A stretch of 63,822 nt of DNA, filler included, from Neolecta irregularis DAH-3 (lineage: Eukaryota): the NCBI GenBank assembly GCA_001929475.1. It is 9 parts of 9 records of this genome, joined end to end, with 100 filler letters (N's around TTAATTAATTAA, not from the genome) between each part and the next. Parts side by side here need not be neighbours in the genome. Positions count along the whole stretch, not along the records: positions 49,164 to 51,320 come from LXFE01003167.1; positions 51,421 to 63,822 come from LXFE01003168.1; 7 more parts are not named here. One strand, given 5' to 3'. The translations under genes and the position numbers were made by a program. Under the pieces are notes generated by a model. The model did not search any database, was not told the origin of the DNA, and saw only the letters and a program-made list of their open reading frames with translations. Within the stretch, counting starts at the first letter, position 1; each line of letters begins with the position of its first letter. This document shows, piece after piece, positions 23,659 to 63,822 of this stretch.

Positions 23659-23740
23659 GCAACCTGCGATTGAATGGAAAGTCTGAGATTCTAGTATTCG
23701 TGAACAACGAAAATTTTCTCTAAAAGATATCTCTCACGAT

Positions 23741-24664
23741 ATGAGAAATAAACCAGGAGATGAGTGGGCCAAGGACATTTTAAAAAAATATGGGGGAGAT
23801 TATGTATTCTCTCCAGCGGTCACAAAAGCAGTCTACGTCCCTCTTCTACTCTTGTGCAGGAACATTGCGATGCATACCACCCAACCAAAATCATTAAATT
23901 TTGGAAAACGTCAAGAAAAGGAACAGAACGAAAATGAAGAGCGACCGACCAAACGCCACAAACCGAATCAGGAGGCCGTAGAAAAGACGGCTACTCAACT
24001 GGTTAGCACGGACCTAGATTCATTGGCAGTTCCTTCGAAAAGATGGTCTTCCCCAGAGTACTTTCAAAATATGGCGTTGACTTTTCTACAAATACTCGGC
24101 GAGAATATTCGTGGAGGCATTACCACTCATTTTCATGAGCAGGATCGGTATTTACTTTTTGCAGAAAAAGATCTGAAGTTACTCGTTGGATTCCCTCACG
24201 TCGGAATGTATATTATCATACTGGGCAGACCGGCTAAAAATGACGACGATCCAACTGTAGTAGAGATATATGAACTCTATTCATCAAGTTTCAATGGAGA
24301 TGACACGGGGATAGCTGTTTCAAACTATTATGAAATTTTTTCAAAATTGATGATTCCGTTCGGCCAAAAATATGATTATAAGGGTCAAGACGATACCCAG
24401 TATTTCAGACATGCGGATGGGGAAATGTTAACGACAAAACTTGTTCTACAGGTGGTAGACTTATTACTTAGGCCTCCTCAAGATACCGGCGATAAATTTT
24501 CTCAACCGACAAGTGCTACACCATTCTTTCGCGATCTCATGGCAATCGTGCTATTTACTGACTATGGGAAGAACCTGCGAAACAGTGTTCAACATCAACT
24601 AAACGACCGCCGATTACAATCACATTTATATGATACAATCATTACAACCCACAACAATACTTGA
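23741..24664 (+). CDS. Intronless orphan hypothetical protein (307 aa) with NLS-like RPTKRHK
   Basis: Long clean ORF; family not recognised. Confidence 0.55.
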   Translation: MRNKPGDEWAKDILKKYGGDYVFSPAVTKAVYVPLLLLCRNIAMHTTQPKSLNFGKRQEKEQNENEERPTKRHKPNQEAVEKTATQLVSTDLDSLAVPSKRWSSPEYFQNMALTFLQILGENIRGGITTHFHEQDRYLLFAEKDLKLLVGFPHVGMYIIILGRPAKNDDDPTVVEIYELYSSSFNGDDTGIAVSNYYEIFSKLMIPFGQKYDYKGQDDTQYFRHADGEMLTTKLVLQVVDLLLRPPQDTGDKFSQPTSATPFFRDLMAIVLFTDYGKNLRNSVQHQLNDRRLQSHLYDTIITTHNNT

Positions 24665-25265: not shown

Positions 25266-25914
25266 AGAATGTCGAGACTGACAGAATAGTGAAATATCGA
25301 TTCGATCATGTCAGCACACTCGTCGGTATGTGGTGCTGGTTGAGACTTGGGTTGGGTGCTCTGACTTAGTTACTNNNNNNNNNNNNNNNNNNNNNNNNNN
25401 NNNNNNNNNNNNNNNNNNTTAATTAATTAANNNNNNNNNNNNNNNNNNNNNNNNNNNNNNNNNNNNNNNNNNNNCTACTTATTCCACCAACGCCTGATTA
25501 CTGTATTGGTAAGGTATACCGACTGGGTATATCCTTACAGTAGGGGTCAAAAGTCACAATCATTTCCGAAACATGGTAGCTATTGTGAACGAAATCCTTA
25601 AATTTGCGGTGCAAATGAAAGACAATCATGAATAAAAAGTCAAAAGAGACCTAAAGGAAAAACATGGAATTATTTTCGATAGATATCGACAACACGTCTA
25701 CTGCTCTCCCGTTATCGAGAAATCCAAACTATAGCCGTTTGATGCTCTGAACAGGGCTGTATGGTTTTGACCGTCATCTATTATGAATTTGATCATGGAT
25801 GTGAAAAATGAGTGTTGCATGTTTCAGTTTTCTCCTGTCATTCAAACGCACTGGCAGGTCAAGTGATACGCTGAGACAATTTCAGTCAAAAATGACCGTT
25901 TTTATAGGTTTACC

Positions 25915-27598: not shown

Positions 27599-28859
27599 TT
27601 ATTGAAATAAAATTGACTTCTATCGTTAAGCGAGATCTTGGACCTTGACAGTTGACAATGTAAAAGCTCCAAGCCCTACTTTGAAAATTGTTCATTCTTG
27701 GGTTGATTCTGTTCACCGTTAGAGCCAGTTTATTGTCCTTGTTATCTATTGATGAAGATTGTAACTGAGGACTAACTATGTGGCAGCTAGTTGTCACCAT
27801 AAGGATGACAACTATCTTCCACATAGGTGGTATATATACATGATACTTAGTGTTTATGCTATACCTCTCTCATACGCTGAGGGAGTCTCCACTCTCTGTA
27901 CAGATATCCAAGTGTGGGAGCTCTTTGTATGCCTGGGAGGCTAGAACTCCTGTATCAGACTCTAGGTGAACTTCTTGGAATAGGGTGCTAGTCACTTAGG
28001 AAGTAACTAACTCTATTCAAGTTGTTGGTTAAAAGCCTGCCCTCCTAGTGAGGTACAAGCCTGCTACTTATAGTGAANNNNNNNNNNNNNNNNNNNNNNN
28101 NNNNNNNNNNNNNNNNNNNNNTTAATTAATTAANNNNNNNNNNNNNNNNNNNNNNNNNNNNNNNNNNNNNNNNNNNNGTGGTAAGGTTGGTGGAGGACGG
28201 TTACAGATTTGGGGGTGTGGCTGTGCGATTCCACAGGTGGGACAGAACACATTAATTGGTGTGCTATAAGTCGGAGTTACGCTGTTTTCTAATAAAGAAT
28301 CGGGACATGGGAGAGGATCGCTTGCAAAGCCACGCTTCTTCGGCTATTACTTTCTAAATGTCTATGTAAATCTTTGTTAGCCGACATGCTTTCTGTTATC
28401 TTTTTGCAACAATCCTGCTTTGGAAATATCTGGATCACCCCTTGTTAGCACCATGCAATGAAAAGCATATATGAGGAGAACGTATCAGATACAACATGGG
28501 GCAATCTTCGCCGAGTCTGACTCCGTTATCTCATCTTCAAAACAGTAATCCGCATCCTCCTTCCATTCATGTTTTCAGAAGTCAATCATGGTGTGTTCGG
28601 GAAGAAAAGTAATACAAAAATAGCATTCTTAGAGTCATGATGTGTGCGTAAGCGACCAAACTTTTGTTGCAGATGGGCCCTAATAGTATTCTACTAATTT
28701 CATTCCATGATTTAGTACCACAAATGCAAAACTCCATTCTGTTTCTGTGAACTTGTGTATCCTCTAAACCAACATGGCAACGCCTTAGAAGCAACAACAG
28801 ATTGTGTAAAGAAAAACCCCGAACATGAAAGACTTTGAAGTGGTCATCAAAGGACGAAC

Positions 28860-47653: not shown

Positions 47654-48324
47654 NNNNNNNNNNNNNNNNNNNNNNNNNNNNNNNNNNNNNNNNNNNNTTA
47701 ATTAATTAANNNNNNNNNNNNNNNNNNNNNNNNNNNNNNNNNNNNNNNNNNNNCACGGTTCTGCTTCCCACGACGGTCCTCTGTCTTCCTTAGAGTATCT
47801 TCGTACCGGGAGTATGGGGCGTGCTGACGAGTCACCGTATGTAAACGGGGCTTAGTTTAGCTTTTCCTTTTTTACCTACAGCGTGTACTGGAAGGAAGTA
47901 TGTTGTGTTCTGCAGGTATATAGATTAGCCCACCGCCCCTCTTTCAAACAAAATCAAAATATATCAAAGATCCAAAGCACAACTTTAAGAACCTTATCCG
48001 CTACCACCCTCCCATTCATCACAATCAACTATCACTCCATATCCATCCTCTTCCTGACTTTGACCCTTGGGACGGATTCTGCGCGACATACTGTCTGAAT
48101 AGCGAATCAAGTCCTTTCTTTAATAACCTGATTCCTCGCTATAAGACACCGCCTCGCACAACAAAGCATCAACCCCGTTTTCACTAATAACCTACCCTTC
48201 GTCAAAGCAGTCAAACCTCACCGTAAACACTGATTGGAACCTGTGTGCTAACAAGCCTGTTGTAAAGAATCGTGTAATTGGGGATTTTGGGAACTTTGTC
48301 CAAAACATGAGTCCCAGCGTTCCT

Positions 48325-49048: not shown

Positions 49049-49163
49049 GGTTCGCGATAAATTNNNNNNNNNNNNNNNNNNNNNNNNNNNNNNNNNNNNN
49101 NNNNNNNTTAATTAATTAANNNNNNNNNNNNNNNNNNNNNNNNNNNNNNNNNNNNNNNNNNNN

Positions 49164-49776
49164 CATCCGACACCGCCGCATACCGCACTCGCCGTCGCTT
49201 CTCTCCAGCCTTCCGCGGTGAATACTTGTAATCAGGATATTGTTGTTGATGCTGAACCCGAGCACTTTGAGCCAATTCTTGATATCGCTGCTTGATGCTT
49301 GATGATTCGGCTTTCCACATCTCCCCAATAATCCTAGAAACGTCATTGTTGCAGATCCCATCATTTTCAGCAAAAATAAGTGGCTGCTTTTCCTTGCGGT
49401 ATAGAATAAATGCGTTTGGCGGCCGCGGAGGCCTTTTTGGTACCTTTTCTGGTTTGGGGGACTTCTTCCGCTTCATTGGTCGTACAATAAAGGTCGGTAA
49501 CTTGCTCTCTCTTAATGAAAATGGTATCCTGATGCAGGTGGTGTGAGCCCGAGGATTTAGTTTGAGAAATTCACTTTCATCGTCTTCCGCAAATAATACC
49601 GGAATGAACCCGTCCGGAACGAACCAGGCACTCCCTTTATTTTGCCGAACGAGCTCAAGGGCGTCTTTGGTGCTAAACTTTTGCACCGGCTGAGCAAGAG
49701 TCTCATCACTATTTCCTAAATGTTGGCGAACTTGGCCGGATTCTGGAGATTCAGCGAAATCGGAAGACGAAGACAT
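49164..49776 (-). CDS. matMc: Mating-type HMG-box transcription factor (Mc / MATa2 / MAT1-2-1 class), 3' end truncated by a gap
   Basis: PRPPNAFILYRKEK...NNDVSRIIGEMWK.ES...RY......QH...YPDYKYSPRK closely resembles the S. pombe Mc HMG box; ATG at 49776; no intron in the box. Confidence 0.85.
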
Positions 49777-49862
49777 GACTGATCGAGCCAAATGAGAGAA
49801 AGAAAGAAAGAAATGGGATAGAGAGTCGACAGTATAAATATAAAACGGTCTGTGATGTGAAT

Positions 49863-49963
49863 GACAAAGAAAAGAGATGCCGGAATGGTCTCTTTCTGAT
49901 TAGAAACTTCTTGCTGATCACGGTCGCTAAAAACGCCCCAAGCGCCCCCCTTCATCCTTTGTC
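49863..49963. promoter_or_regulatory. Two oppositely oriented TR-box-like (Ste11/HMG) sites in the divergent MAT promoter
   Basis: GACAAAGAAA at 49863-49872 (reverse complement TTTCTTTGTC, 9/10 to the TR-box TTTCTTTGTT) and TCCTTTGTC at 49955-49963. Confidence 0.45.
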
Positions 49964-50081
49964 TTGCTTTCGTCAAAGCAAAGCGCGCGTGATTTAGATC
50001 ACTTAGGGACGCTCCGCCCCTCCACCTCACTTCATCTTAATAAATAACAACTCTCCCTACCCCTTCATCATCACCCGCAAA

Positions 50082-50810
50082 ATGCCTTTGCGAAAAGATG
50101 TTCCTCTTGCGCATCTTGCTGCGCTAGCGGATGAATTGGCTGTCACAACGTCTCAGTACGAAACACCTTTGGAATTAATGCAGGATCGAATCGTACATCC
50201 TTTTTTCCTGGCTGAGATTTCGTCGAAATATCCCCTGACGGCTATCGAAAGTCAAGGCTCGTCCCCTGAGTCTCAAGAGATGCTCCGCGGTGCGCTCGAT
50301 AGTCTACAAAGCGTTCACGAAGGAGCCTTCAATGACTGTGCTTTGATTACGCAGCGCATATGTTGGAGTGATCCAGTTGCCCAAGATATGGAACTAGCCG
50401 ATCTTCATCGTTCCCTTCAACGCGAGCTTGCACAAGTTTGTGCTTCCGTCATTGCTATGACGGAGAATTATAAAGAGAATGCTGAAGAGGGCGATAAGTC
50501 AGGTGGCCGCAAACGACGATTTGGCAACGACGCTCGCCACATTCTCGAAGCCGCTTATCTTTGCAAGGATAGACCTAATCGTCTTGAAAAGGATCGTCTT
50601 GCAAAGCGATGTGGTCTCACTCCTCGACAGGTTGGGGTTTGGGTATTACTTTCTTTTTTTAAAAAAGAATGAAACTTACTTCAGTTTTCAAATAGGCGTT
50701 CGCGGGGCCGAACTGAGAAGAAGGATGTAGTTTACTATTGTTCTCCTCCCTCTACAAACTCGCCTTCGTCCGATATGCACTTCCCATCGCCGCAATATGA
50801 GTTTGTCTAA
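50082..50810 (+). CDS. Mating-type HD2-class (MATa1-like) homeodomain protein, 228 aa; exons 50082-50642 and 50685-50810
   Basis: Reads on the + strand (the ORF track strand label is wrong). A 42-nt GT..AG intron splits W|FSNRRSR. Canonical non-TALE spacing (F8, L16, P26, W48, F49, N51, R53); ARHILE...N..EK..LAKRCGLTPRQV.VWF resembles a1. Confidence 0.88.
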
Positions 50811-51946
50811 AAGTCTTCGTCAAGAATTCGGTATACATTATAAGAATAATGGGGGTTTGGTCTTCAAGATTGGAAAAGCTCTATGGATTTGGACATGTTT
50901 GAGCACTCATCATCTGTATATTGTTTGATACCTATCGTCTCGTGTAGATACTTAATTGTGATAGATACCTACTGCTGGCTAGTGACTTAGAAAATTGAGT
51001 TCATCGTTAGGCGATTTTGCGCAATTGTTGTGCAGTGTTCCATGGTTTCCGCCAATTATTTACGTAGGCAAGCTTATTTAGAATGAGAAGGATTGCCCAA
51101 AGTGATTTAAGTTCCTATTACGAGCTGATGCAAACTAAGACCCGATGTACGTGTGCACATACACGCTCTTCCGCAGAGGCCCCTAGTCATCCTCGTCCTG
51201 TCGATAATATGAAACTTTCCGCATTTCACCTAGGACACGCCTTGCATTTGATAAATCGTTCTCCAATTTCAAAATTTCTACCTGTTGCTCCATCTCTCTG
51301 ACCTTGAATTCATGAGAACCNNNNNNNNNNNNNNNNNNNNNNNNNNNNNNNNNNNNNNNNNNNNTTAATTAATTAANNNNNNNNNNNNNNNNNNNNNNNN
51401 NNNNNNNNNNNNNNNNNNNNTCTCTTTGTATCTTCTGAGATAATAGACTTGTTCATTGTTGCTTATTAAGTAACACAGCCTGGAGTATCACACAAGATCC
51501 GCTAGTGCGCCTAGTGTAACCTGATCGCATTCGTGTAACAATCGCGGATCTTAGCTGTTTACATATAGGGTAAAACTATCTCATTATACATATGAGACAT
51601 ATAGATAAGTCTGAAACATTATAATAAGTCCAAAATATGATAATAAGTCTGAGACATATGAATAGGTCATTCATATGAGAGAGATGACATATCATCCCTT
51701 ACACCAAGGGGGTACCTGAGACAGGGGCCCACTATAAGCGAGGGGAAATTCCTGAGATAGGGGAGCTTGTAAGATAGGGGTGCCTGTGGTTATATAAATC
51801 ACTGTAAGGAGGTCTGATTAGCCATTATCCTCACAAATTACTGCTAAATATTCATAAAAATTAATAAACTAATTATTATTAATAATTATTTTTGTTAACT
51901 TCTCTATTGGATTTATATACTACCTATCTTTCTATATAATATTCTC

Positions 51947-54299
51947 ATGATTCAATCTAGTAGTATCATATTTATATTTCCAAATCCCAAGGGATGTGAA
52001 GCTCTATCAATTGATTTGATTAAGGGAGCTCTCTATATCTCAGGAACAATATGGGATAGAATACTTAAATGTTCAGAAACAGAAACTTGTTTATCCTCAA
52101 TAGTTATACCTTACAGTGATAAAATGCAACTAGTTATCAAGGAAAGAATTGAATATTTGAATAATAATCCTAAATCTGGGGTATCTGTTTCCTTGGAGGA
52201 TACACCTTTATCAGTTATGATAGTTGGACATATTGAAGCTTGTAGGAATGCTTTACACAAAGATTTATTAGCTTATATTCCATCAATTGTACTTATTTTA
52301 AATTTTAGTAAGATATTAACAATAGGGTATAATGTATATTGAGATTTGTGGATCTTCTTTAGCTCTTATCAATAGTACTGGATATAGTAGATATTGCTTT
52401 AAAAGATTTCTTACCCAAATAAGCAAAAGCTTAGATATTGAGATTTTACTATCTATATCTACAAACCTAACTGGATCTTCATTGAGTAAAATATTTCTTT
52501 ATGGTGAAATTAGTAAAATAAGTTATGGAAAAATTGTTATTCTAATTGAATTAGACTTAAAAGTAGGTTTAACAATTATTTTGGCAAAAATAATTGATTT
52601 AAATAGGCTGGACTATTATTAAGAGCTCTAGAAATACCTTCAACTTATCACTATTTCCTGAAAAAGCAAAATGGAATACCATTACAAGATATTCAAATCA
52701 AACATCAAGTTAATATATATTTGGTAGACTCTGAGATTGTCAAACAAATTGAAGCCTGCAGTATTATACTTCATAAAAGCAGGCTTAATCAAGGATTTGT
52801 CTTGATAGCTGGAAACCTAGAGAATTGCAATTTAGCTTCTCAAGATATATTTGTAAGGCTGGTTAATAAAAGTTTCCTAAGTTTTATCAGATACAACTAA
52901 ACTCTCATTCATTTTCAAGTGAGATTTATTTAAGTTATGAAGAAAGCTTTTTTCTCAAAGAATGGTGCAAACAGGAACTTGAGTTAATTGAACTTCAGAA
53001 TGGTTTTTATATTTATATCTATATATTTGCTAAAATTAGGTTGTTTATTACAATATCCTTCAGTATATCATAGAGGCAAATCTATTAGAATTCATTGTAA
53101 TACAATTCAAAATACTGAAAGAGCTTGCAGACAAATTGAAAAATTATTGGAAGGGTTCCTAGAGATAACATTTACTTCTTTGGAAAAAGGCTTGAATAGA
53201 GATTTGAAATCTACAGTCAAGTATAACATAAAGTTAAGTAAAGAACTCAGAAGGATTTCTGCAAAGGTCCAAATTATATGTACTGGAAGTCATTATAAGA
53301 TTCAAGGTTATGCAGATGAAGTAATCAAAGCTGCTTTGCTTGTCAACACACTTCTCAATCCAATGTTATTTCATGGATTGGTAAAAAAGAATAGTAAGCA
53401 AATAGAAATAGAAAAAAACCTCAATCTTAATAAGATATCTACTTATGAATTTGGAGTAACACTTCTTATTAGAAATGAGATTTTCAAAGTTGTAACTGGG
53501 AATGGACTTGGAAAGCTTCACAAGATTTTACAAAATTCTCAGTCTCTGGGAATTGAAATTTATAAAGAAGGGACACAAAATAGTAAGATTAAGAACTCAA
53601 GTTTTCAGGACAAATATTTCCCAAGAATATTTAAGATTAGTTTTCACAGCTCTATTTTCAGTGAAATTATTAAAGCTTTGAAAATATTCCAAGGGGAATT
53701 ACCTGCTGAAATATCATTTTATTTACCAGATAAACTACATTCTGACCTTATTGGTCCTGAAGGAAGGAGAAGCAAAGAGATTCAAGAGAAATATCTAATG
53801 CATATAGAATTTATCAGATCTGATAAGCTTGCTGCACAAGGAGGTGGTCCTCTTTTTGTTGAAGATAATGTATATATTTATACACCTAGATATAACCATC
53901 AGCAGCTAGGTGCTTGTAGGAATGCTATCATGGAAAAACTACCCAAACATGTATCTTCTATTGGAAATTATAATATCCTAATATAATAAGGCTGAAGGAC
54001 ATAGAAACTGGATTCATATAAATCTATTTATTCACCAAAAGCTACACAGGTTGCTCTTCAAATGTTACCAAAGTTTTGAAGGCTTTTTGAAAAGATTTTC
54101 TGTAATTGTCAGATTTCCTAGTTGTTCAAGTGGACAGAATTATATCACTATGATTGGGCCAGAAGCAGGAGTTCAACAGGCTTTGGAAGACCTTGAGGCC
54201 AGGGCTTGCCAGCTGGAGAAAGAGCTCAAGTCCATTGAGGAACTAACTGGCAGAAATCACAGTATAGTATCCACAGGTTGGTCTAGTGGAAGTACATGA
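51947..54299 (+). CDS. Multi-KH-domain RNA-binding protein (Mug60/YLL032C-like), divergent, multi-exon, AT-rich
   Basis: VVTGNGLGKLHKIL, ELPAEISFYLPDKLHSDLIGPEGRRSKEIQEKY...IEF, DNVYIYTPRYN...L..CRNAIM, FSVIVRFP...ITMIGPE. Confidence 0.75.
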
Positions 54300-54681
54300 A
54301 AGCACAGGCTTAAAGAAAAGCAGTTTTTGTTTGTATTATTAATGTAAAGGAGCCAAGATGAATGTATCGGGCCCAAAGAGGAAAGCGGGCTTGCATGGCT
54401 GCTAAGCGAACCCAGGATTTCCCCGGTCTGCTGTCTCAACGTCGCTTACTCAAATTCCCAATCCCCCCTTGGTCTTTGATGTCCGGACTTGCTCCTTTGC
54501 CTTAGTCGGGAATTTCTCAATTGCAGCGCCTGTTTCCACTCCGGTTTTTCCACGTAGGATCAAGGAGCGATACCCCTTCTGTCCTCCATCGTGGGTGTCC
54601 CGGCGATTTTCCAGGGGTCAAGATCACCCGCCTCGCTTGTTCCATTTAGTCTTTCTGTCTTCTAGTCTCTCTGGGGGAATA

Positions 54682-57600
54682 ATGTCTGCCGTCCAACAGC
54701 CTAACAATGGGGGATTGGAATTGAGGCTCGACGATGAGCCTGTCGGACAGGACCCCACCTGCAATGGTTGCGGAGCGGTATCAAGAGTCGTAGACTGGAT
54801 GAGACTAAGTGAAACTAGATCATTGAAGAAGGGTCCGTTGTGGCGTTTGGAGATCATATCTGGCACGTTGAATGGTATATCATACCCAATGGCTCGGTTT
54901 TTCTTACGGTCCAGCTTTCGGTGTGCGAAATGTCGCACTCAAGTAGATCATGACTCAAATCTTCTACTTCTTTCGGACGGAAATCCAATATGCGAGAATT
55001 GCAGTTACAATTGTCGAGCTTGTAACAAGAAAATCGATGAACTGGCGATTATGACTGGTATGCACCATACTCGATTGCAAAGACTCAAGATTTATAGGAG
55101 ACGAAAGCTACCATGCGGATTGTTTCAGATGTCGGCATTGCAAGAGAAAGATTGACGATCTGGTGTTTGCAAAAACGAGCCAGGGAATTTATTGCATCGA
55201 TTGCCATAATGAAAGGATGGCTCGAAGCCGACGACATCATAAAGAGAAAAAGGCCGCACAGCGAGCCGCCGCCGAATCTTCGGCAACTAGTCATCCATCG
55301 CCGCCATTTGGGATGGTCAAGGATAAGAGTTTACCAAAACTCCCGCCATCTCAGTCTGATGAATGTTTACCCGTAAGATTTTCGACTCAGTCAGCACCTT
55401 CTGACACTTTGAAGATGCTATATTCAAGCTCCAAGTCGAGAAATAAGTCCCCATCTCGAGATGGTATCGGCCTGCTCGAGTCATACTGACATCAGGGCAA
55501 CTTTCACCTTCATCTAACCGTTCATTTTTGGCGATGGACAATGAGCATGACTTACCATCTACAGATGCATTTATACCACTCGTGTTCGACCCATCGCCTC
55601 CGTCACCACAACCTTACAATCAGCAAATTTCCCGTTCTCGGGACCTGTCCCAATCCAAGCAGGTCCTTGATCCAAGCAAAGCACCCGATCCAAGCAAACT
55701 CTGGACCCATCGCGGAGCATTCGATGATTCTAAACTCGGCGTAAAACCTCCAAGCAGCAAAGATAAAAGGCGATCAATGATGGTTTCCTCATCAATGGGA
55801 CAACTACCTTCCCCTGCATGTCAGAGTCCTCTTTTGCCATTCTTCTCTGAGCCAAACGCCCAGCATGCGAATCCAATAAGGCCGATTGCAGACAAACCGC
55901 CTAGGAAAGCACCAAAGCCCACTCCGTTGCAGAAACCTCGAACATTACCTACCACGCCCTCTGGAATGCCAGTTCACTCACCGGGAAAGCACAGGTCACC
56001 AGTTGACTGTCTCACATCGCCAAAACCAGGACTAGCATCCTCTTCATTCATGAAGTCACCGCAGAAAGATGTTTTTCCAGTCTCCACGATGGGCTCCTCT
56101 GAACCCCTTCAAAAGATCTCCCCCAGATCTTCTAACCCAGTTGCCGTCGAAAGATCTCCTGTGCTACCACCCTTGCATGAGCCAATTACATTAACTTTTG
56201 AGGATGACATCGCTAAAATATTTGCCGACAACGACCCTTCCGATGAAAAATCGAAAGCCTTCCTTCGACTTTCTCAATCATTGCGCCACCATCGCTCATT
56301 AAGTGATGTCTCTGGTCAAGCATCAGAAGTAGCTAGGATGTCAGCGATGCGACGAAACAACTCAAAATCTCAACGTCCTATCTTGAAGGATTCAATGGTC
56401 TCTACCTTGAACGGTAATTCTGGGGAAACGGATGCTCTGAAAAGGGAGTTAAGGAAGAGTACACAGAGAATTGTTGAATTGCAAAGTCAGCTGGTTGTCC
56501 TTGATAACGATACGGAGAGAGAGGCAGTCAGTATGAAAGAGACTATCGCAAGTTTGGAGGCCGTTCGTGAGATTCTCATTAAAGAGATTGACATTTTGAA
56601 AGGGATTAACGAGAACGAGTATGCCTTTTTCCCAAGGTATATTTTAACATTCAGATTTAGCGGTATCGAGGTTCGAGAAAGCATCCTTCAAGACTTGAAG
56701 AAGGCGCTTAATAATCTAAAAGACGCTTACAAACCCAAAATAGCAGAACTTATCGCCCAACGAGATTCTCTAATGGAGGAAAATGTACGTCTTCAGAGGA
56801 CTCGAGCTCAAGCGATCGAGGAAGCCAGGTTCCTGAATGCGAAGAACCTCGAATTAGCCGATCTAAACAACGAACTTGTGCGCCAAATCCAAGAAAGCTT
56901 CAAAGGTTCAAAACGCCATATACCAAAGTCTCAAAGTCAATGTACAGCCGCCAGCCTACCCCTGAGTATTTCGACAACCGCAGCAACTATAACACCTAGC
57001 GACTTGGATCGTCCGCGTACCCAAGACACGAATGACGAAAATGTGATCTCCGTTTCCAAAGTGATAGATAGAAGACGAAGTCAAGAAATCAATACGACTG
57101 CTCCCAAAAAGTTTAAGTGGAAGAAGGGTGTTGCAAAAGGATTCAATCAACTATGGAATGGGATCGTGTTATCAAAGGACCTTGTTAAAGGACACACTTT
57201 CGTTGAGAGTAGGTTCCTTAGACTGACGAAATGTGATCATTGCGGGGACAAATTATGGGGTCTAGAAGTCCGTTGTCAGAGTTGCGGGTTTGGTGCACAT
57301 GGCAAATGTATTGCAGAAGTCGTTGCGGCATGTTCAGGTGTCAATAGACAGATCATGCTTAGAGATGGGGATTCGATGTCTGACCATAGCTTGATAGAGG
57401 GTTCATATATTTGTTGGAACAGACTGACGTCCAGTTCCGATATTCGGGAACGATCTTTGCAAACAAGCTGAGGTCGAAGGTGTTCCGATACCGTACATCG
57501 TTGCAAGGTGTATTGAGGAGGTTGAATTTCGAGGTGAAGGTTGAAACAACGAACGCCTCTAATAGCTTAGGAATGGATTATGAAGGGATTTATCGAAAAT

Positions 57601-58113
57601 CCGGAGGAGCTTCGCAAATGAAGGTCATTATCGATCTCTTCGAATCTGGTCAAACGGACCTCGATCTAACTGAACCAGGTGGTTCAGGTGATATTTGTGG
57701 TGTAACGAGTGTGCTCAAACAATATTTCCGACAGCTACCAAATCCGTTGATAACGTTTGAAGAATATGAAGATTTTCTAAAAGTCTCACAAGTGGTTGAT
57801 ATCGAAGAACGATTTGCTGCGATGATCATGGTTCTGAAAAGATTGCCGACTCCTAATTATGAGACATTGCGGTTTTTGCTATTACATCTCAATCGAGTTT
57901 CTGAACAAGCTGATGTAAATTTGGTATGTTATCTTATTAAGTTATCTGACCTTTTAGATGAACACGAGAAATCTCGCTGTAGTTTTTTCGCCAACGTTGG
58001 TACGAGATCCAACAGGTCTGAGAGAATTCCACGACATGCAAGCCAAAAATCTCTGCGTGCAATTTCTCATCGAACATGCGGAACGAATCTTTGGACGAAA
58101 TCTGAATGGATGA
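54682..58113 (+). CDS. LIM-LIM / coiled-coil / C1 / RhoGAP protein (Rga3/Rga4/Rga1 family), multi-exon
   Basis: LIM motifs (FRCAKC...PICENCSYNCRACNKKI, YHADCFRC, IYCIDCH), C1 domain (HTF...KCDHCGDKLWG..RCQSCGFGAHGKC), GAP (GMDYEGIYRKSG, TSVLKQYFR.LPNPL, MNTRNLAVVFSPTL). Confidence 0.92.
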
Positions 58114-58811
58114 TATTTCTAACCGATAAGGGTTCCAGGATGGTAGGAGTACTTCCTTTTTTCAGGTCTGTATATAAAACATTTGGTTGCGATTCGACAG
58201 GATAATCTTTCGAATTAAGTATAATATGATTGCCCATCTTATCCTCTTGATGTAGATCTGTGACAATCGGAAAACACGCTGTAGGAAATCTTGTTGTCAA
58301 ATTATTTGACTGGAGAGATCGCAAAGAAGGGTTCAACACTTCTTTCGTTTCACTTGAGTTCCTATCAATATGATTGCATTGTATCCTTTTAGAACTGAAT
58401 ACCAGGACTAACTTTTGAGCCCTTCCAACGAGAAATATTTGTCTAATTCCCGTTCTGCATCCCAGTTTGTGACTTAGATTACAAGCTGGCAATATGCATT
58501 GGTCTTATTATCTATATATAGCCTTTCGATAATGGGAACAGTTCCTGGTTTATTCTACAAAAGCAGTTTTCACAAACTGAAATACGTCGAATGTACCCAT
58601 GTGTCTCAATTGTAGCCTGGAATGTATTAGGCGGAATTTATAGCCTGGAGAGCTTCCTTTGGCCCAGATAGTATATCTATAAAAATTCTCTCCCTGACAA
58701 ATTACTCACAATCATCGGACAAACCCGGCATGTATCGGAATAATACGGAAACTTTGAAATAATCTGGACGGAGAAATTTCCTACCTTCGTGATAAACCCC
58801 TCATTGGAACG

Positions 58812-59945
58812 ATGATGTTCTCGCGCCTTGCCGTAGCCTCCATCACTAAGCGTCAATTCTCCCATACCGTCTCAAATGTATGCTATAAAAAGGGATATAA
58901 AGAATAATGGATGTCAGGCTACAAAAATTGCAGTTCTTGGAGCAGCCGGTGGAATTGGTCAACCGCTTTCGCTACTGCTCAAATTGAACCCTTTCGTTTC
59001 TGATCTTGCTCTCTACGATATTCATGGGGCTCCGGGTGTTGGTGCTGACCTTTGCCACATCGACACCAAAAGCACAGTACACCCCTTCCCGTTATGTTGC
59101 CTGACCTAATGGTTAGGTCAAAGGCTATCTTAGTGAATATGATGGTCTTCAAAAGACTCTAGATGGTGCTGAAGTCGTGGTGATTCCAGCTGGTGTACCT
59201 CGAAAACCCGGAATGACACGAGACGATCTGTTCAAAACGAATGCTAGTATTGTCCGGGATCTTGCAAAAGCAGCTGCCCAGCATTGTCCAACAGCCCATA
59301 TACTCGTTATTTCAAACCCCGTAAACTCAACGGTTCCAATCGTTGCTGAAGTTTTCAAAAAATTCAAGGTGTACGATCCCAAGAAATTATTCGGAGTTAC
59401 TACTCTGGACCTAGTCCGAGCCCGCCGATTTGTCAGTGAATTGCGAGAAAGCGATCCTGCTAGTGAGGAACTCATTGTCATTGGAGGACACAGTGGGTTT
59501 ACAATTTGCCCCCTCTTCTCACAAACGAGCCACAACTTTGAAGGTCAAGAACTTGACAACCTTTGTAAACGAGTTCAGTTTGGCGGTGATGAGGTGGTTA
59601 GAGCTAAAGGTGGTGCTGGTTCAGCTACTCTCTCAATGGCTCATGCGGCCGCTCAAATGACGAATTCTCTCCTTGAAGCTATGAGTGGTAAGAGCGGAGT
59701 AGTTCAGTGTTCATTTGTACAATCGGATCTATACCCAGAATGTGCATTCTTCAGCTCACAGGTTGAACTTGGAGTATACCACGTTATAAAGAACATGCTA
59801 ACATAAATAGCAGGACGGCGTTGAAAAGGTCCGGGATATCGGAAAGATCAACGAATATGAAGAAAATATGTTGAAAGTCTGTCGTGCAGAATTGGCTAAG
59901 AACATTGAGAAGGGGAAGACATGGATAGCTGCGAACTGGGAGTAA
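58812..59945 (+). CDS. MDH1: Mitochondrial malate dehydrogenase, multi-exon
   Basis: Presequence ...[68 protein letters not shown]. Confidence 0.96.
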
Positions 59946-60577
59946 GTCTCTCTGAAATACATGGTTTGCTGCATATACACTAAATTCGACAGTATGACAA
60001 GTTAATATGATAACTTTTACACCTCTGAATTGAAGCCAATGCGCCTGTAGATCAAGTCATCGGACATCTTTCCGCATCATAGCCATCCTGATGACTTTCT
60101 GATGACTTTCATTCAAAAGCATTACTATTTCTTGAATGATGCGGCTCTCTTAGGTTCGGAGAAAAATCCACCATTCTTGAACCCAAACATAAAAATGGAT
60201 GAAAGATTAAACATTTGATGCAATCATGCTCTCTTAAGAGAATTCTCACACTCTGGAACTCGAATTGACCCATGGGCATTTTATCAGGGTGCGATTAATA
60301 CATTTTCTAGTCCAGTAGGTTAACTGGTCTTGGGAGTGTCTCAACATTTTCGGCAGAGAACGGTCTTTCAAATAATTCTGCTCGAACCATATGCTTGACG
60401 TTAAATCGTTGAACTTATACTCGGAAGGAAGACTGGAAACAGAGGAAAAAGGCACAAGGCAATGCCTGTCAGGGAAAACCATCAAAATATTATATAATCA
60501 TCATATACCAGGCCAAGCGTTTTCAGAAGTCGACATACTATTCGTCAATATAACCATGAGAGAAAGTTATTACACCA

Positions 60578-63367
60578 TCACCAGAATTCGTTTATGTTCA
60601 GTTTCACTAATAGATCTCCCAAGAATCCCCCAGCAACAGAAGCATCGCTAACATCCATGGCATATTGCACACTGGAGAAATCCTCCTTGGCACCTCTTCC
60701 CAGCCGACCACCTCCCTTTTCATTCAACTTAGAAATCGTGCTGACAAACTCGCGAATAGAATTCCCAAGATTATGATTTTCGTGAAGAATTTCAGAGAAA
60801 ATATTGTTCAGCATGTCCATGAATGGCTCCTGTCCAGCTGATAACATCGAACCATATAACATTCGATCAAGAGCGTGATCATGCATCTCACGTAACTGCC
60901 GAATACTGCTTTCGTGATTGATCTGCTTGATGAAGCTATTCCAGGTTATCGTGAGGTGCTCAAAGGTATAATTCATAATTGCTTGTGCAAATGTCAAAGC
61001 GGCATATGCTGATTTTCCTAACAACCGGAGACGAAGACGGCAGCAGTGATCGATACGGATCAACTTTATCAGAAAGAGAAATATTTGGTCGTATTTCTTG
61101 ATAATCGAAGTAGAAATGATTCCGTCAACAAGGAACGGCGGAGTATAACTCATTTTGAGAAATGAAAGAGCTTCGATGTCTAGCTCTATCAATCACGAAA
61201 GAGAAAGAAAATACCATTGATACTTGTCGGCTTGTATTCTTCGCGAACCGCAAAACTGATGCCTTTCTCAATGCCTAGACCTCCAAAAGCGCAACTAACT
61301 TCAGTACCGGAAGGGGGCCAATCTTTCCTATTCACTATCTTCAACTCGTCAAACACGCTCTCTTTGAACCTAACAGCAAATTGTCCATCCCCGAACAAGA
61401 AGGTATCTCTCAACATCGAGAAATGATCGTTCAATTTGAGATCGTCAAACATGAGAGATGATAACATGGTATTTACCAGGCGAGCCTGGCAACGGAGAAC
61501 TGCAAGAAACCCTCTACGATGAAACGTTGGAAGTGGTGGTCTGCGTTCATTTGAGCTTTCGATGGATGCAATGTCTTCGAATAAACTCTTCGCTGATGAA
61601 GATTTTACTGTTGGAATATCGTGGTTCATGGCCATACGTAAAGATACGAGCGCAGATGCAATCCCGTCTTTGGAAAGGCCCCATATGTCGAGAGGATTTG
61701 CCTTTTTGGCAGCGAACATTGGTTGTGCCTCCAAAATCGATATTTCTTCGAGGACATCAAGCTCATATCGTTCAACTTCAATCAATAGTCTGATGGTCAA
61801 CTACATCCGTTAGGATAGCAGTACTCTTCGTATTCAGCCCATGTTCTCTGAAATTCAAGATTAATGCCACGGACACGTGTATTCAGCTTTAACGCCCAAC
61901 AGACACTCGAATCCGGAACGCATCGTCTTAGTAAACGAATATTCTTTCCAGTCTCAAATATCAACTGTATAATTTCATCTGTCAAGAATTGCGGTATCTT
62001 TGGCTCGATAATCTTGATAAATCAGGTCTGATCAGAAATCAAAGTGTGATACCTGATAGCGAGAATCCAGAGCATCATATGAGTCACCCTCATTTCCAAC
62101 CTTTTGTACAAAGAACTCTCGACTTGGATCTATATTATCCCAATCCTGGAGATTCTCAATACCTCCAAAGCTATCCATCTTTTGCAAACCAACCCATTTA
62201 CCGATCAAAGCGAGGTAAACTTTTGAACAACTTCTTAACATGGCGAATAAGATTGGGCCAATCGGGTTGCCGGTTCTATCGTATTGAACCGTTGCATTGT
62301 ATAGAATATCAAGTAATTTCGTGCCTCGAGGTTTTTCATCAAAGATCTCCTGGAAGAAGGAAAGAATGCGCGACGCATCGACAATTTCCTGGGTGATTTG
62401 TATTAAACTGTGATTTGAACACAGTTTCGCGAGTCCTTGATTATAGGAGTCGAGAAGAATTATCAGATGTGTAGAGAGCGCGGTTAATGTTGGTCCATAA
62501 TAACTAACGGTATCAATACGTAAATAATGTACAAGCACTTACTCAACATCATCCAAAACCTCGTCAATCAAAGAACGAAGACATCTGAACTCACGTCCAC
62601 AGTCGAGCGCTATCTGAACGATTCTTCACGTATTATTTTTAACGAAAATACAAGACTTACTCGCGCATAGTACATTCAGAGACATCTTTAATTTGGAGAT
62701 GTGCTACATTCTTCACGAATTGGTTTTCTGTCACATCCCACTTGAACAAGAGAGAATTACGTCCTGATGCCGCAGATATGAGTGACTTTCAGTCAAATTC
62801 AACTCACATAACTGTATCGTACAGAGCATAATACACTAATTGAAACATCGCTGGATACCCTGATTTCTTGATAATAGGGCAGATCTATTAGCTGAAATGT
62901 GTTTTCCCAAGTGAAAATAGGCTCCTCGAAATTCAATGTAAAAATGGATAAGGACACTTACTCCTATTAATTCTTCTCTAAAGTTTAACCAGGGATCTTC
63001 CATTTGTACAGATCCCGAATCGATAAATTCAGATGATTTTCCGGTAGTAGTTGCTGCTATATTACCTTCTCTGGGGGACAGATCGATCTCGCTACCGTCA
63101 CTCGAAACGTGTTCAAGATCAAATATGGTCCTTGCGTTACTTCCAACTGATGGTATTACCCCGCCTTGACTTCCTAAGTCAAGTAACGTGGATGGGGTAG
63201 ATTCAAGAATTGCTACTGGTTTCTGATCAGGTTTGGTGTGAGGAGTAGTATGTACGGGAACAATCGAGCTCCCCAAACAAACTTGTAGAATTCACATTGA
63301 GGTATGAAGACTGTGGATATAAGTCTTGAAATGAGAATTTTGAACGATCATTGTGAGATACGGACAT
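60578..63367 (-). CDS. Gamma-tubulin complex component (Spc97/Spc98 family, probably GCP6/Alp16), multi-exon; start approximate
   Basis: IFETGKNIRLLR, DHFSMLRDTFLFGDGQF, LKMSY.PP...DGII...IKKYDQIFLFL, MHDHALDRM, LLVKLNINEFW. Confidence 0.8.
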
Positions 63368-63757
63368 GATTAAAGTTGTTGTCACATCGAGTCACGTTAC
63401 CAGAATTCTCTTGCAGTCTTGAGAACAGCTTATGTGACAGTGTGAAAGTGATGAAGATTTCTATTCTTGTCGGAAACTTTCGGTTATCAAGCTTGCAGGA
63501 TTGGAAATCACTTGCTGTTACTATATAGCCGCTGTAAGGATATAAGGTATATTCTTACCAATATGGCAAGTGGCTTAAGTGCATTAAATAAGAGGGTCTA
63601 TAAAGAAGGGAACCACATATAGCTAACCTGGGTTACATTCATATAACATAGGTTAGATATGTTCCTGATATTTGTACCCCAAGCGAACCACTTGCAGCTG
63701 CCCGCTTTAATTGTTATTGGGCATGACAATTCAGTTAAAATCCAGCGGGCTATATAC

Positions 63758-63813
63758 TGTGAGCGTTCAGGTGTTCCTTTTTGTCGCTCGTGGACTTAGG
63801 TTGGTATGTTGAT
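63758..63813 (+). repeat. Second copy of the 56-bp LTR-like terminus
   Basis: Identical to 19845-19900. Confidence 0.75.
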
Positions 63814-63822
63814 AGGACGGCA

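What the first reader, a model, noticed from the sequence alone, without database searches (positions are those of the whole stretch)
51741..54367. 2.6 kb with no CpG, covering an apparently intact KH-domain gene
Seen: reading by eye I found no CG dinucleotide between 51741 and 54367, although C and G (and GC, CC, GG) are common; all Arg codons are AGR. The boundary is sharp, and the adjacent RhoGAP gene has abundant CpG. Long reading frames and splice sites persist. CpG-poor tracts also occur in repeat-like DNA (about 27880-28077, 63540-63680). Inference: long-term CG methylation with deamination, or a CpG-targeted RIP-like process, acted on a gene that stayed under selection. This would be notable because fission yeast lacks 5mC. 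It may be methylation spreading from the repeat-like DNA at 51421-51830, or a multicopy gene family.
Basis: partly seen in the sequence, partly recalled or inferred. Interest (0 to 1): 0.75.

Follow-up and report, generated by a model that had tools for sequence, protein, structure and literature searches.

The report
CpG-free KH gene in Neolecta
One expressed, intact RNA-binding-protein gene of the fungus Neolecta irregularis has lost every CG dinucleotide and much of its G+C while its neighbours are normal, which points to a local CG-directed mutation process in a fungal group thought to lack one.

Summary
There is no CG between 51740 and 54367 (2,627 nt). About 61 are expected from base composition, and the lowest of 5,000 shuffles had 39. 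The rest of the window has CpG o/e near 0.9.

The window is not fission yeast. It is nine draft contigs of Neolecta irregularis DAH-3 joined by 100-nt spacers.

The block covers one gene: six exons, five introns of 37-44 nt and an intact 718-codon frame. Two of the introns, and the junction into the CpG-normal RhoGAP gene, are confirmed by contigs of a second run, so it is not a chimera.

The protein is a very divergent Mug60/Khd4-type multi-KH protein. Its terminal branch is 2.83 against a median of 0.25, yet it still folds as tandem KH domains.

Neurospora-type RIP indices are not met, and there is no TpG/CpA excess, only a TpA excess.

Best reading (about 0.5): a domain-limited, CG-targeted C-to-T hypermutation, probably dependent on cytosine methylation, still active or very recent, and filtered by purifying selection. 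Rivals are foreign origin, selection against CG, and a methylation-free AT-rich domain.

Still unexplained: read depth halves and contigs break about 45 nt beyond the right edge.

The parts
51421..51545 (.). Start of the 12,402-nt contig. This is the CG-normal part of a high-copy, transcribed dispersed repeat.
   Evidence: summed depth of X1 contigs at least 90% alike is 20,805 in 51421-51573, against 226-443 in unique DNA. X2 depth here is 165; 5 CG observed, 5.4 expected; no other copy in the window.
51546..51740 (.). AT-rich part of the repeat with a 19-nt tandem array (51586-51678). It is CG-free except for the CG at 51739.
   Evidence: depth 24,378 in 51574-51726, falling to 541 and then 226; 4 copies of a 19-nt unit; 0 CG of 5.8 expected in 51547-51738.
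51741..54367 (+). The CG-free block (GC 30.7%), covering the gene with about 206 nt upstream of the ATG and 68 nt after the stop.
51947..52288 (+). Exon 1 of the KH gene (ATG at 51947).
   Evidence: the six exons join into 2,157 nt with an intact 718-codon frame; an X2 contig covers 51936-52212 with 0 differences; same N-terminus as annotated protein P0127.
52289..52325 (+). Intron 1, 37 nt, GT..AG (predicted).
   Evidence: The junction agrees with P0127. No X2 contig covers it.
52326..52562 (+). Exon 2.
   Evidence: P0127 omits 17 residues here. No X2 contig covers that spot.
52563..52606 (+). Intron 2, 44 nt, GT..AG (predicted).
   Evidence: The junction agrees with P0127.
52607..52852 (+). 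Exon 3.
   Evidence: an X2 contig is continuous over 52613-52852, so the extra 12-residue gap in P0127 is not spliced out in that contig.
52853..52890 (+). Intron 3, 38 nt, GT..AG. It is skipped in an X2 contig.
   Evidence: table 5: joint 52852 to 52891.
52891..53002 (+). Exon 4.
53003..53039 (+). Intron 4, 37 nt, GT..AG (predicted).
   Evidence: The junction agrees with P0127.
53040..53950 (+). Exon 5 (303 full codons from 53042), encoding tandem type-I KH domains.
   Evidence: KH_1; 100% match to P0127 residues 287-589. AF2 model with pLDDT 75.8 and pTM 0.70; best fold matches are tandem KH domains (IGF2BP/IMP, FBP, Nova).
53951..53990 (+). Intron 5, 40 nt, GT..AG. It is skipped in an X2 contig.
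   Evidence: table 5: joint 53950 to 53991.
53991..54299 (+). Exon 6, with the stop codon at 54297-54299.
   Evidence: alignments to homologues run on through this exon, to residue about 687.
54368..54418 (.). Right edge of the block. The first CG is at 54368. The X1 contigs end and begin at 54407-54418, and depth steps from 226 to 443.
   Evidence: table 8: records 5 and 8.
54683..58205 (+). Neighbouring CG-normal LIM-C1-RhoGAP gene (at least to 58205). It is annotated as fused to the KH gene.
   Evidence: LIM, C1 and RhoGAP domains; five GT..AG joints of 32-42 nt. P0127 (1,813 aa) joins both genes.

Best explanation
The block is a native Neolecta irregularis gene. It is a fast-evolving member of the Mug60/Khd4 family of multi-KH RNA-binding proteins, and it lies in a domain of about 2.6-2.8 kb beside a high-copy repeat. 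A DNA-level process in that domain converts C to T with near-total preference for CG. The most likely cause is deamination that depends on cytosine methylation, or a RIP/MIP-like activity of Dnmt1-family enzymes, together with a weaker general drift towards A+T.

The process has acted repeatedly and is still active or only just stopped. Purifying selection removed the changes that would have destroyed the reading frame, the splice sites or the KH fold. The result is a gene with no CG, 31% GC, AT-shifted amino-acid content and a protein branch more than ten times longer than its relatives.

Shown here: the CG absence, the composition step, the gene structure, expression and splicing, physical linkage to the normal neighbour, and the divergence of the protein.

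Inferred: that the cause is mutational, that it is methylation-dependent, and that it is tied to the repeat or to a chromatin domain.
For: 1. The depletion is total and blind to position. It covers codon positions, codon junctions (14.3 expected even with the gene's own codons, 0 of 2,000 permutations reach zero), introns, and the upstream and downstream flanks. That fits a DNA-level process better than codon choice.

2. Introns are 20% GC and GC3 is 0.23 against a host GC3 of 0.41. Amino acids are shifted too (FYMINK 34% vs 26.5%, GARP 16% vs 22%). This is regional mutation pressure that also reaches non-synonymous sites.

3. The lost CG reappears as TpA. Against the host, after allowing for the composition shift, TpA is 1.26x and TG/CA 0.97x, as expected if CG goes to TG/CA and then to TA under continued C-to-T pressure.

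4. The block holds 145 TG and 150 CA, each one transition from CG, and none has reverted. In a simple equilibrium model (my inference) the expected CG count is about 65/kappa. Zero therefore needs CG to mutate at least about 22 times faster than other C (for P(0) of at least 0.05), or the purge ended less than about 1% T-to-C divergence ago. This points to an enzymatic or methylation-driven process that is still active.

5. The gene is native-like. Its introns are 37-44 nt, against 32-42 nt in the neighbour. It aligns collinearly with fungal Mug60/Khd4 proteins over residues about 124-687. It keeps only 46 of 115 family-conserved columns, and its terminal branch is 2.83 against a median of 0.25. 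The acceleration is therefore specific to this copy.

6. High-copy repeat DNA abuts the block. GC is lowest at 52250-52749 (25%) and rises to 37-43% near the right edge.

7. Literature:
- A CpG-specific C-to-T signature in transposon copies is known in Tuber and three Pucciniomycotina species and is associated with Masc2-type Dnmt1 (PMC4352252, abstract and section 12 read).
- DIM-2- and RID-like genes are reported in two early Taphrinomycotina, Saitoella and Taphrina (PMC7882544, passages).
- PF00145-domain proteins are reported in N. irregularis (bioRxiv 10.1101/2023.05.12.540427, 2024 version, methods passage).
Against: - No methylation data and no methyltransferase were examined here.
- The class of the reported Neolecta PF00145 proteins is not stated in what I read. 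They could be Dnmt2-type tRNA enzymes. The 2023 version of the same preprint said that no Taphrinomycotina has DNA methylases.
- The repeat segment at 51421-51545 is CG-normal (5 observed, 5.4 expected). This is awkward if repeats are the primary target.
- The right edge is a step, not the gradient that spreading or leakage would give.
- There is no TG/CA excess.
- At 4 of 5 family-conserved Arg columns Neolecta has S, D, E or Y, and Arg is kept at the fifth. None shows the C, H, Q or W that one-step deamination of CGN codons would give, although the branch is saturated.
- A published sliding-window survey found no RIP in three Taphrinomycotina genomes; Neolecta was not among them (PMC7882544, passages).
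- Only one such block is visible in 63.8 kb, so generality is unknown.
Confidence: 0.5

Rival explanations
1. Foreign origin. The gene-sized block was imported by horizontal transfer or introgression from an AT-rich fungus that avoids CG genome-wide, and it still carries the donor's composition.
For: - The block is gene-sized, with a step-like right edge about 68 nt after the stop.
- Codon usage is wholly unlike the host's: Arg is 27 of 27 AGR against 34% AGR in the host.
- The nine best non-self hits are Mucorales where named (8 of 9); none is an ascomycete.
- X1 contigs break and depth changes about 45 nt beyond the edge, as at a structural junction.
- In phages and bacteria of this scan, CG-poor blocks with sharp edges turned out to be imports (AI notes, not tested here).
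Against: - The introns are of host size class and are spliced by the host.
- No terminal repeats or target-site duplication flank the block.
- The best foreign match is only 35-37% identical over about 130 residues. The protein has lost 69 of 115 columns that are conserved across the homologues aligned, which among those I could name range from chytrids to Dikarya. A donor would therefore also need a hyper-divergent copy.
- No sequenced lineage is close: only the self-hit has E below 1e-30 among 1.84 billion representatives.
- After an old transfer CG would have re-accumulated, and none of the 295 one-step sites has reverted.
Confidence: 0.12
2. Selection against CG. Any CG in this transcription unit is deleterious, for example because it would seed silencing next to a methylated repeat, or because a factor recognises CG in the RNA. 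Selection, not hypermutation, keeps the unit CG-free.
For: - The CG-free span roughly matches the transcription unit plus promoter (about 206 nt upstream of the ATG to 68 nt after the stop).
- The gene is expressed although it abuts a high-copy repeat.
- Codon order itself avoids C|G junctions.
Against: - It needs effective selection at about 60 separate sites, including introns and flanks, each of small effect.
- It does not explain the fall to 31% GC, the 20%-GC introns or the ten-fold longer protein branch.
- No CG-reading factor is known or was tested in this fungus.
Confidence: 0.12
3. A methylation-free regional effect. The block lies in a recombination-cold or centromere-type GC trough, where AT-biased mutation without GC-biased gene conversion lowered GC.
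For: - The GC trough reaches 25-30% in a 44% GC genome (PMC5309816 passage).
- It sits at a contig end next to high-copy repeats.
- AT-rich centromere cores of a few kb are known in other yeasts (recalled, not checked).
Against: AT drift alone leaves CG near its compositional expectation. The last 368 nt of the block are 38% GC and still have 0 of 13.1 expected CG. GC, GG/CC and AG/CT dinucleotides are not depleted beyond composition. So this cannot be the whole explanation.
Confidence: 0.08
4. Artefact. The contig is chimeric, or the block comes from a contaminant in the field-collected material.
For: - The assembly is a fragmented draft from field fruiting bodies (PMC5309816 passage).
- X1 holds 1.9 million contigs.
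- The depth of the block contig (226) is half that of the neighbouring contig (443), and the two contigs meet at 54407-54418.
Against: - A contig of the second run, X2, runs from 53430 across 54367 to beyond 56000 with 0 differences.
- X1 record 5 spans both edges (51534-54418).
- The introns are of host type.
- The annotated public protein covers both genes on one 12,402-nt contig.
Confidence: 0.02

Closest known systems
CpG-signature C-to-T decay of transposon copies in fungi with Masc2-type Dnmt1 (Tuber melanosporum, Microbotryum, Melampsora, Puccinia; PMC4352252, abstract and section 12 read)
   Same: Cytosine loss is directed at CG rather than CpA, occurs in a fungus, and is associated with repeated DNA. 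It is presumed to depend on a Dnmt1-family enzyme.
   Different: There it is a partial bias seen in 10-40% of transposon copies. Here it is a complete purge of an expressed gene with no second copy found, in the Taphrinomycotina. No enzyme or methylation has been shown.
RIP and its leakage into neighbouring single-copy genes, including AT-rich isochores with fast-evolving genes as in Leptosphaeria maculans (recalled; RIP distribution from PMC7882544 passages)
   Same: An AT-rich block with a sharp compositional edge sits next to repeats. A gene inside it evolves abnormally fast but stays functional.
   Different: The dinucleotide signature is wrong. TpA/ApT is 0.92 and (CpA+TpG)/(ApC+GpT) is 1.45, giving a composite of -0.53, much like the host's -0.57. 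CpA is not depleted and only CG is. RIP was reported as undetectable in the three Taphrinomycotina genomes surveyed.
Vertebrate-type CpG depletion through 5-methylcytosine deamination (textbook, recalled)
   Same: CG is selectively lost while GC, CC and GG are kept.
   Different: Vertebrate genomes settle near o/e 0.2, which would leave about 12 CG here (P(0) 5e-6). They show TG/CA excess and are depleted genome-wide. Here the depletion is total, local, and without TG/CA excess.
Mug60/Khd4 multi-KH RNA-binding proteins of fungi (Pfam PF24563). Ustilago maydis Khd4 is an mRNA stability factor (PMC10450656; title and start of abstract seen in a search listing).
   Same: Collinear alignment over about 560 residues, a KH_1 domain, and tandem type-I KH folds.
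   Different: The family's signature domain scores 16.5 bits, below the cut-off of 27, against 52-133 bits in five relatives. 69 of 115 conserved columns are changed, and one GXXG loop is degenerate.

Membership tests
Mug60/Khd4 multi-KH protein family | At least one Pfam KH_1 domain above the gathering score | tested here: met
   P0127 scores 35.3 bits for KH_1 (cut-off 21.5) at residues 511-547; the raw ORF alone scores 21.0, just under the cut-off.
Mug60/Khd4 multi-KH protein family | The Mug60/KHD4 KH type I domain (PF24563) above the gathering score | tested here: not met
   16.5 bits, E 0.0076, cut-off 27. Five relatives score 52-133 bits.
Mug60/Khd4 multi-KH protein family | Collinear full-length similarity to family members | tested here: met
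   phmmer alignments of the spliced protein cover residues 124-680 (P0131), 158-687 (P0201) and 166-682 (P0183). Most other hits align over about 476-687.
Mug60/Khd4 multi-KH protein family | Type-I KH fold | tested here: met
   model of exon 5 with pLDDT 75.8 and pTM 0.70; 24 PDB matches at E of 0.001 or better; ranks 1-10 are all KH-domain entries.
Mug60/Khd4 multi-KH protein family | RNA binding and an mRNA-stability function | not testable with these tools
   Sequence only. One GXXG loop is kept as GPEG and another is degenerate.
Canonical (Neurospora-type) RIP | High TpA/ApT and low (CpA+TpG)/(ApC+GpT). The usual thresholds (about 0.89 or more, and 1.03 or less) are recalled, not checked. 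| tested here: not met
   block 0.92 and 1.45, composite -0.53. Host 0.70 and 1.27, composite -0.57.
Canonical (Neurospora-type) RIP | The target is duplicated DNA | tested here: inconclusive
   No second copy among 1.84 billion representatives at E below 1e-30, or among proteins of 532-2,000 aa. Unannotated pseudogene copies could not be sought because no genome is held.
Canonical (Neurospora-type) RIP | A RID-type methyltransferase in the genome | not tested
   Literature only. PF00145 proteins are reported in N. irregularis, class not stated. RID- and DIM-2-like genes are reported in Saitoella and Taphrina.
5mC-dependent CpG decay (CpG-signature mutation) | Selective loss of CG with other C- and G-containing dinucleotides kept | tested here: met
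   CG is 0. After correcting for composition, GC is 1.11x, GG/CC 1.25x and AG/CT 1.29x the host level.
5mC-dependent CpG decay (CpG-signature mutation) | Excess of the products TpG and CpA | tested here: not met
   TG/CA is 0.97x host after composition correction, and TpA is 1.26x. This is compatible with further decay but is not the defining signature.
5mC-dependent CpG decay (CpG-signature mutation) | Cytosine methylation present at the locus or in the genome | not testable with these tools
   No methylation data are available.
Horizontally acquired gene | Phylogenetic placement inside a foreign clade | tested here: inconclusive
   in a tree of 98 sequences the protein sits alone on a branch of 2.83, with no resolvable sister group.
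Horizontally acquired gene | Insertion scars or mobile-element ends at the block edges | tested here: not met
   no terminal direct or inverted repeats pair the two edges.

The most novel reading that the evidence does not exclude
Neolecta has an active CG-specific DNA methylation or deamination system that is targeted to defined transcription units rather than only to repeats. An example would be an RNA-guided heterochromatin island on a meiosis-type gene; the family's fission-yeast member is named 'meiotically upregulated gene 60', and such islands are known in S. pombe (recalled). This system would have erased every CG from a gene that is still expressed. That would be the first footprint of cytosine-methylation-driven mutation in the Taphrinomycotina. 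It would also be a natural case of a gene made methylation-proof by losing all its CG. The halved depth could further mean that the locus is present in only half of the nuclei or genotypes sampled.
Probability: 0.15. Interest if true: 0.85.

Novelty: new variant of a known kind. Interest (0 to 1): 0.62.

Why it matters
The Taphrinomycotina (fission yeasts, Pneumocystis, Neolecta) are usually treated as lacking RIP and, for the most part, DNA methylation. A 2.6-kb expressed gene with no CG at all, in a genome whose other genes have normal CG content, is hard to produce without a CG-directed process.

It therefore gives a concrete locus at which to test whether an early-diverging ascomycete keeps a working cytosine-methylation or RIP/MIP-like system. 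It also shows how far a protein can be driven by mutation pressure and still keep its frame, introns and fold: a ten-fold longer branch and 60% of conserved columns changed.

Two practical points follow. The public annotation fuses this gene to the neighbouring RhoGAP. And adjacency across the spacers in this window is not physical.

Tried and rejected
- Whole-genome access: none is held for this window. I could not scan for other CG-free blocks, methyltransferase genes or pseudogene copies.
- Sequencing runs: no RNA holder is listed. X2 is labelled 'DNA?' (guessed), but its contigs skip seven GT..AG segments of 32-42 nt, which I read as spliced transcripts.
- Rfam at E of 1 or less on 51421-54700: only a chance-level lncRNA hit at 17 bits against a gathering score of 70. 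There are no tRNAs in the window. The high-copy repeat is therefore not a known RNA gene.
- Terminal repeats or target-site duplication around the block: none.
The exception is the contig-end repeat 63758-63821, which matches 19845-19908.
- Metagenome scan for relatives of exon 5: 346 pattern matches, none confirmed. No orthologue from a Neolecta relative was obtained, so no dN/dS could be calculated.
- A second Neolecta copy of the family: I looked up names for 29 of the 149 non-self hits listed. 20 carried names, and none is Neolecta. This is not exhaustive.
- Arg-column test for one-step deamination products: 5 conserved Arg columns, where Neolecta has S, D, E, Y and R. Uninformative.
- Internal duplicates of contig 20009-22682 as a mutation-spectrum sample: too short and too alike, with 0-1 mismatches each.
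- Transcription-associated deamination: rejected. It is not CG-specific, and the coding strand has A > T although C < G.
- A processed retrogene: rejected, because five introns are present.
- An engineered CpG-free sequence: rejected, because it is a spliced fungal gene linked to host DNA in two runs.
- Earlier findings of this scan: none for this genome or this sequence.


Full report
**Observation.** One search finds CG dinucleotides at 51739 and 54368 and none between. This 2,629-nt gap compares with a next-longest gap of 323 nt, and that one contains a 100-nt spacer. The block 51741-54367 is 30.7% GC, and 61 CG are expected from its base counts. P(0) is 1.4e-24 at the window's own o/e of 0.9, and still 5e-6 at o/e 0.2.

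Four controls all stay far from zero:
- 5,000 mononucleotide shuffles: mean 61, minimum 39.
- The same protein with host codon usage: mean 72.6, minimum 49 of 2,000.
- Host usage skewed to GC3 0.22: mean 47.3, minimum 34 of 300.
- The gene's own codons permuted among synonymous sites: mean 14.3 cross-codon CG, minimum 6, and 0 of 2,000 reach zero.

All nine contigs of the window have overall CpG o/e between 0.70 and 1.08. No 1-kb window outside the block falls below 0.50.

**What the window is.** It contains eight copies of a 100-nt spacer (44 N, a 12-nt six-frame stop motif, 44 N) and two 10-N gaps. It is therefore nine separate draft contigs laid end to end, and adjacency across a spacer is not physical.

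The contig holding the block is 51421-63822, 12,402 nt long. A malate dehydrogenase ORF on it (59117-59806) matches at 95% a protein named for Neolecta irregularis DAH-3, recorded on a contig of exactly 12,402 nt. The block's own exon 5 matches at 100% residues 287-589 of a public Neolecta protein on a contig of the same length. The genome paper (PMC5309816, passages) describes a 14.5-Mb assembly with N50 16 kb and 44% GC, made from DNA and RNA of field fruiting bodies.

The organism is therefore an early-diverging member of the Taphrinomycotina, not a fission yeast.

**Anatomy of the locus.** Contigs of two public runs were laid on 51421-56000.

X1 may be the source of the assembly. It gives one contig over 51534-54418 at depth 226 and another from 54407 onward at depth 443. 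The summed depth of look-alike contigs over 51421-51726 is 20,805-24,378. The contig therefore starts in a dispersed repeat present at roughly 50-100 times the unique depth. The repeat is also transcribed (X2 depth 165).

X2 is labelled 'DNA?' by the tool, a guess. Its contigs skip seven GT..AG segments of 32-42 nt, and I read them as spliced transcripts. Two of the joints lie in the block (52853-52890 and 53951-53990). One X2 contig runs from 53430 across the right edge to beyond 56000 with no differences. The linkage of the CG-free gene to its CG-normal neighbour is thus seen in a second data set, and the gene is expressed and spliced.

With three further predicted introns, the six exons give an uninterrupted 718-codon frame. 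Four of the five junctions and the start agree with the public model. The introns are 37-44 nt, the same size class as the neighbour's.

The public protein (1,813 aa, named a Rho-type GAP) fuses this gene to the RhoGAP gene through an intron that removes the stop codon. The X2 contig is continuous over 53991-54776, so it keeps that stop. I take the fusion to be an annotation artefact, or at most a read-through transcript.

**Edges.**
- The right edge is a step. There are 0 of 13.1 expected CG in the last 368 nt, which are already 38% GC, and then 20 of 26.2 expected in the next 368 nt. It lies 68 nt after the stop codon.
- The left edge is soft. The CG at 51739 is preceded by 192 CG-free nt that belong to the AT-rich part of the repeat, which carries a 19-nt tandem array. 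Before that, 51421-51545 is CG-normal (5 observed, 5.4 expected).
- Within the block, GC is lowest (25%) at 52250-52749 and climbs to 37-43% near the right edge.
- No direct or inverted repeats pair the two edges.

**The gene.**
- Pfam finds KH_1 (35.3 bits on the public protein). It finds only a sub-threshold trace of the Mug60/KHD4 KH domain (16.5 bits against a cut-off of 27). Five relatives score 52-133 bits for that domain.
- A search of 1.84 billion representatives with exon 5 finds only the protein itself below E 1e-30. The next hits have E about 1e-12 and 35-37% identity over about 130 residues.
- I looked up 29 of the 149 listed non-self hits, and 20 carried names. These were Mucorales, Umbelopsis, Mortierella, Bifiguratus, six zoosporic fungi (among them chytrids, Gonapodya, Blastocladiella and Amoeboradix), Rhodotorula, and one Pezizomycotina cluster member. 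None is Neolecta.
- No paralogue of 532-2,000 aa turned up.
- The spliced protein aligns collinearly with these relatives over residues about 124-687. This also supports the exon 5-6 join.
- For an alignment and tree I kept the 97 of 149 hits whose match spanned model positions 525 or lower to 670 or higher with domain E below 1e-12; 52 were dropped. Neolecta keeps the majority residue in 46 of 115 conserved columns. Its terminal branch is 2.83 substitutions per site against a median of 0.25.
- An AlphaFold model of exon 5 (30-row alignment) is still confident (pLDDT 75.8, pTM 0.70). Its best PDB matches are tandem type-I KH domains.

It is a real, folded, hyper-divergent member of this family of RNA-binding proteins. 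A stop-free exon of 303 codons, in sequence where I estimate a stop about every 12 codons, shows that selection keeps it open.

**Signature.**
- Host ORFs (13 ORFs, 4,005 codons) have GC3 0.41, use CGN for 66% of Arg, use NCG for 12-21% of four-fold Ser/Pro/Thr/Ala codons, and have 249 C|G codon junctions against 269 expected.
- The gene has GC3 0.23, 27 of 27 Arg as AGR, no NCG codons and no C|G junctions. Its introns are 20% GC.
- Its amino acids are shifted towards AT-rich codons: FYMINK 34% against 26.5%, GARP 16% against 22%.
- Strand-symmetrised dinucleotide frequencies relative to the host, divided by the shift expected from composition alone, are CG 0, TA 1.26, AG/CT 1.29, GG/CC 1.25, GC 1.11, TG/CA 0.97 and AC/GT 0.85.
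- The classical RIP indices are 0.92 and 1.45 (composite -0.53), close to the host's -0.57.

The TpA excess fits CG going to TG/CA and then on to TA under continued C-to-T pressure, but it does not prove that route.

**How it most likely works.**

*Mutational cause.* CG is missing from codon positions, junctions, introns and flanks alike, and introns and silent sites are extremely AT-rich. I therefore take the cause to be mutational and regional.

*A strong CG bias is needed.* The block has 295 TG or CA sites, each one transition from CG, and none has reverted. In a simple equilibrium model the expected CG count is about 65 divided by the excess mutability of CG. Zero then needs an excess of at least about 22-fold, or a purge that ended less than about 1% T-to-C divergence ago. 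This is my inference, not a tool result. Unmethylated CG is not known to be that mutable (textbook). That leaves deamination of methylated CG, or a Dnmt1-family RIP/MIP-like activity with CG preference.

*A gradual process.* A single heavy burst would have left stop codons. The process must therefore have been gradual and filtered by selection.

*Precedent in print.*
- A CG-specific C-to-T signature is reported in transposon copies of Tuber and three rust or smut fungi, tied to Masc2-type enzymes (PMC4352252, section 12).
- DIM-2- and RID-like genes are reported in Saitoella and Taphrina (PMC7882544, passages).
- PF00145-domain proteins are reported in N. irregularis (2024 version of bioRxiv 10.1101/2023.05.12.540427). 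The 2023 version of that preprint said the opposite, and the class of the Neolecta proteins is not given in what I read.

*Why this gene was hit.* This is not shown. Options are adjacency to the repeat, a stable chromatin domain, a former duplication of exactly this segment, or transcript-guided targeting.

**Against this reading.** No methylation or enzyme was examined here. The repeat segment nearest the contig end keeps its CG. The right edge is a step, not a gradient. The product excess is missing. RIP was not detected in the three Taphrinomycotina genomes surveyed, which did not include Neolecta. I hold this reading at about 0.5.

**Rivals.**
- *Foreign origin (0.12).* It would explain the gene-sized block, the step and the alien codon usage. 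It is what similar blocks proved to be in phages and bacteria of this scan (unchecked notes). Against it are the host-type spliced introns, the absence of scars, the absence of any near relative, the loss of residues conserved across the fungal homologues aligned, and the lack of any CG re-accumulation.
- *Selection against CG (0.12).* It fits the rough match to the transcription unit. It does not explain the GC fall or the long branch.
- *A methylation-free GC trough (0.08).* It cannot remove CG beyond composition.
- *Chimera or contaminant (0.02).* It is contradicted by the X2 contig across the edge.

**Unexplained.** The two X1 contigs meet at 54407-54418, about 45 nt right of the edge, and depth halves on the block side from 443 to 226. 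This could be GC bias in the library. It could also be a structural junction: a locus present in half of the nuclei or genotypes sampled, or a duplicated right flank. I had only one read-laying run and could not compare GC-matched single-copy DNA or look for the other branch.

**Limits.** Only 63.8 kb of a 14.5-Mb genome was available. I cannot say whether this block is unique, and supplements of the cited papers were closed.

**Verdict.** I class it as a new variant of a known kind, CG-signature cytosine decay. It is unusual in being total, in falling on an expressed gene with no second copy found, and in occurring in the Taphrinomycotina.

Noticed in passing
window 12686-12785, 19909-20008, 22683-22782, 25375-25474, 28078-28177, 47654-47753, 49064-49163, 51321-51420: Eight identical 100-nt spacers (44 N, a 12-nt six-frame stop motif, 44 N) join nine separate draft contigs. 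Neighbours across a spacer are not physically adjacent. Several 'repeat' and 'CpG gap' calls that span spacers are artefacts of this.
   Followed up: yes
window 51947-58205 (public protein P0127): The public annotation fuses the KH gene and the LIM-C1-RhoGAP gene into one 1,813-aa protein through an intron that removes the stop at 54297-54299. The X2 contig is continuous there. The public model also drops 12 residues that the X2 contig retains.
   Followed up: partly
window 49164-51320: A 2,157-nt contig, cut at both ends, carries an HMG-box ORF (49164-49899, minus strand, running off the contig) and a homeodomain ORF (50007-50672, plus strand), arranged divergently. This pairing is reminiscent of the fused mating-type loci described in other Taphrinomycotina (recalled). 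The Neolecta genome paper's main text has no mention of mating type.
   Followed up: partly
window 51421-51726: A dispersed repeat at about 50-100 times unique depth, also transcribed. It has a CG-normal part and an AT-rich part with a 19-nt tandem array. It matches no Rfam family or tRNA, and it has no copy elsewhere in the window.
   Followed up: partly
window 54407-54418: The X1 contigs end and begin here, and depth steps from 226 (block side) to 443 (RhoGAP side). Library GC bias and a structural polymorphism or duplication are both unresolved.
   Followed up: partly
window 27877-28077: The last 201 nt of a contig (GC 46%) have no CG where about 9.4 are expected (P 8e-5 for this tract). 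This could be the start of another CG-free block cut off by the assembly.
   Followed up: partly
window 19845-19908 and 63758-63821: Two contigs end in the same 64-nt sequence (95% identical). This is another dispersed repeat at which the assembly breaks.
   Followed up: no
window 20009-22682: A small contig with two 10-N gaps, near-identical internal duplicates (20009-20156 and 21453-21567; 22332-22446 and 22458-22572), and the lowest contig-wide CpG o/e outside the block (0.70, with TpG 1.26 and CpA 1.18). Its two long ORFs have no Pfam match.
   Followed up: partly
runs X1 and X2: X2 is listed as 'DNA?', but its contigs lack seven short GT..AG introns in two genes, so it behaves as a transcriptome.
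   Followed up: yes
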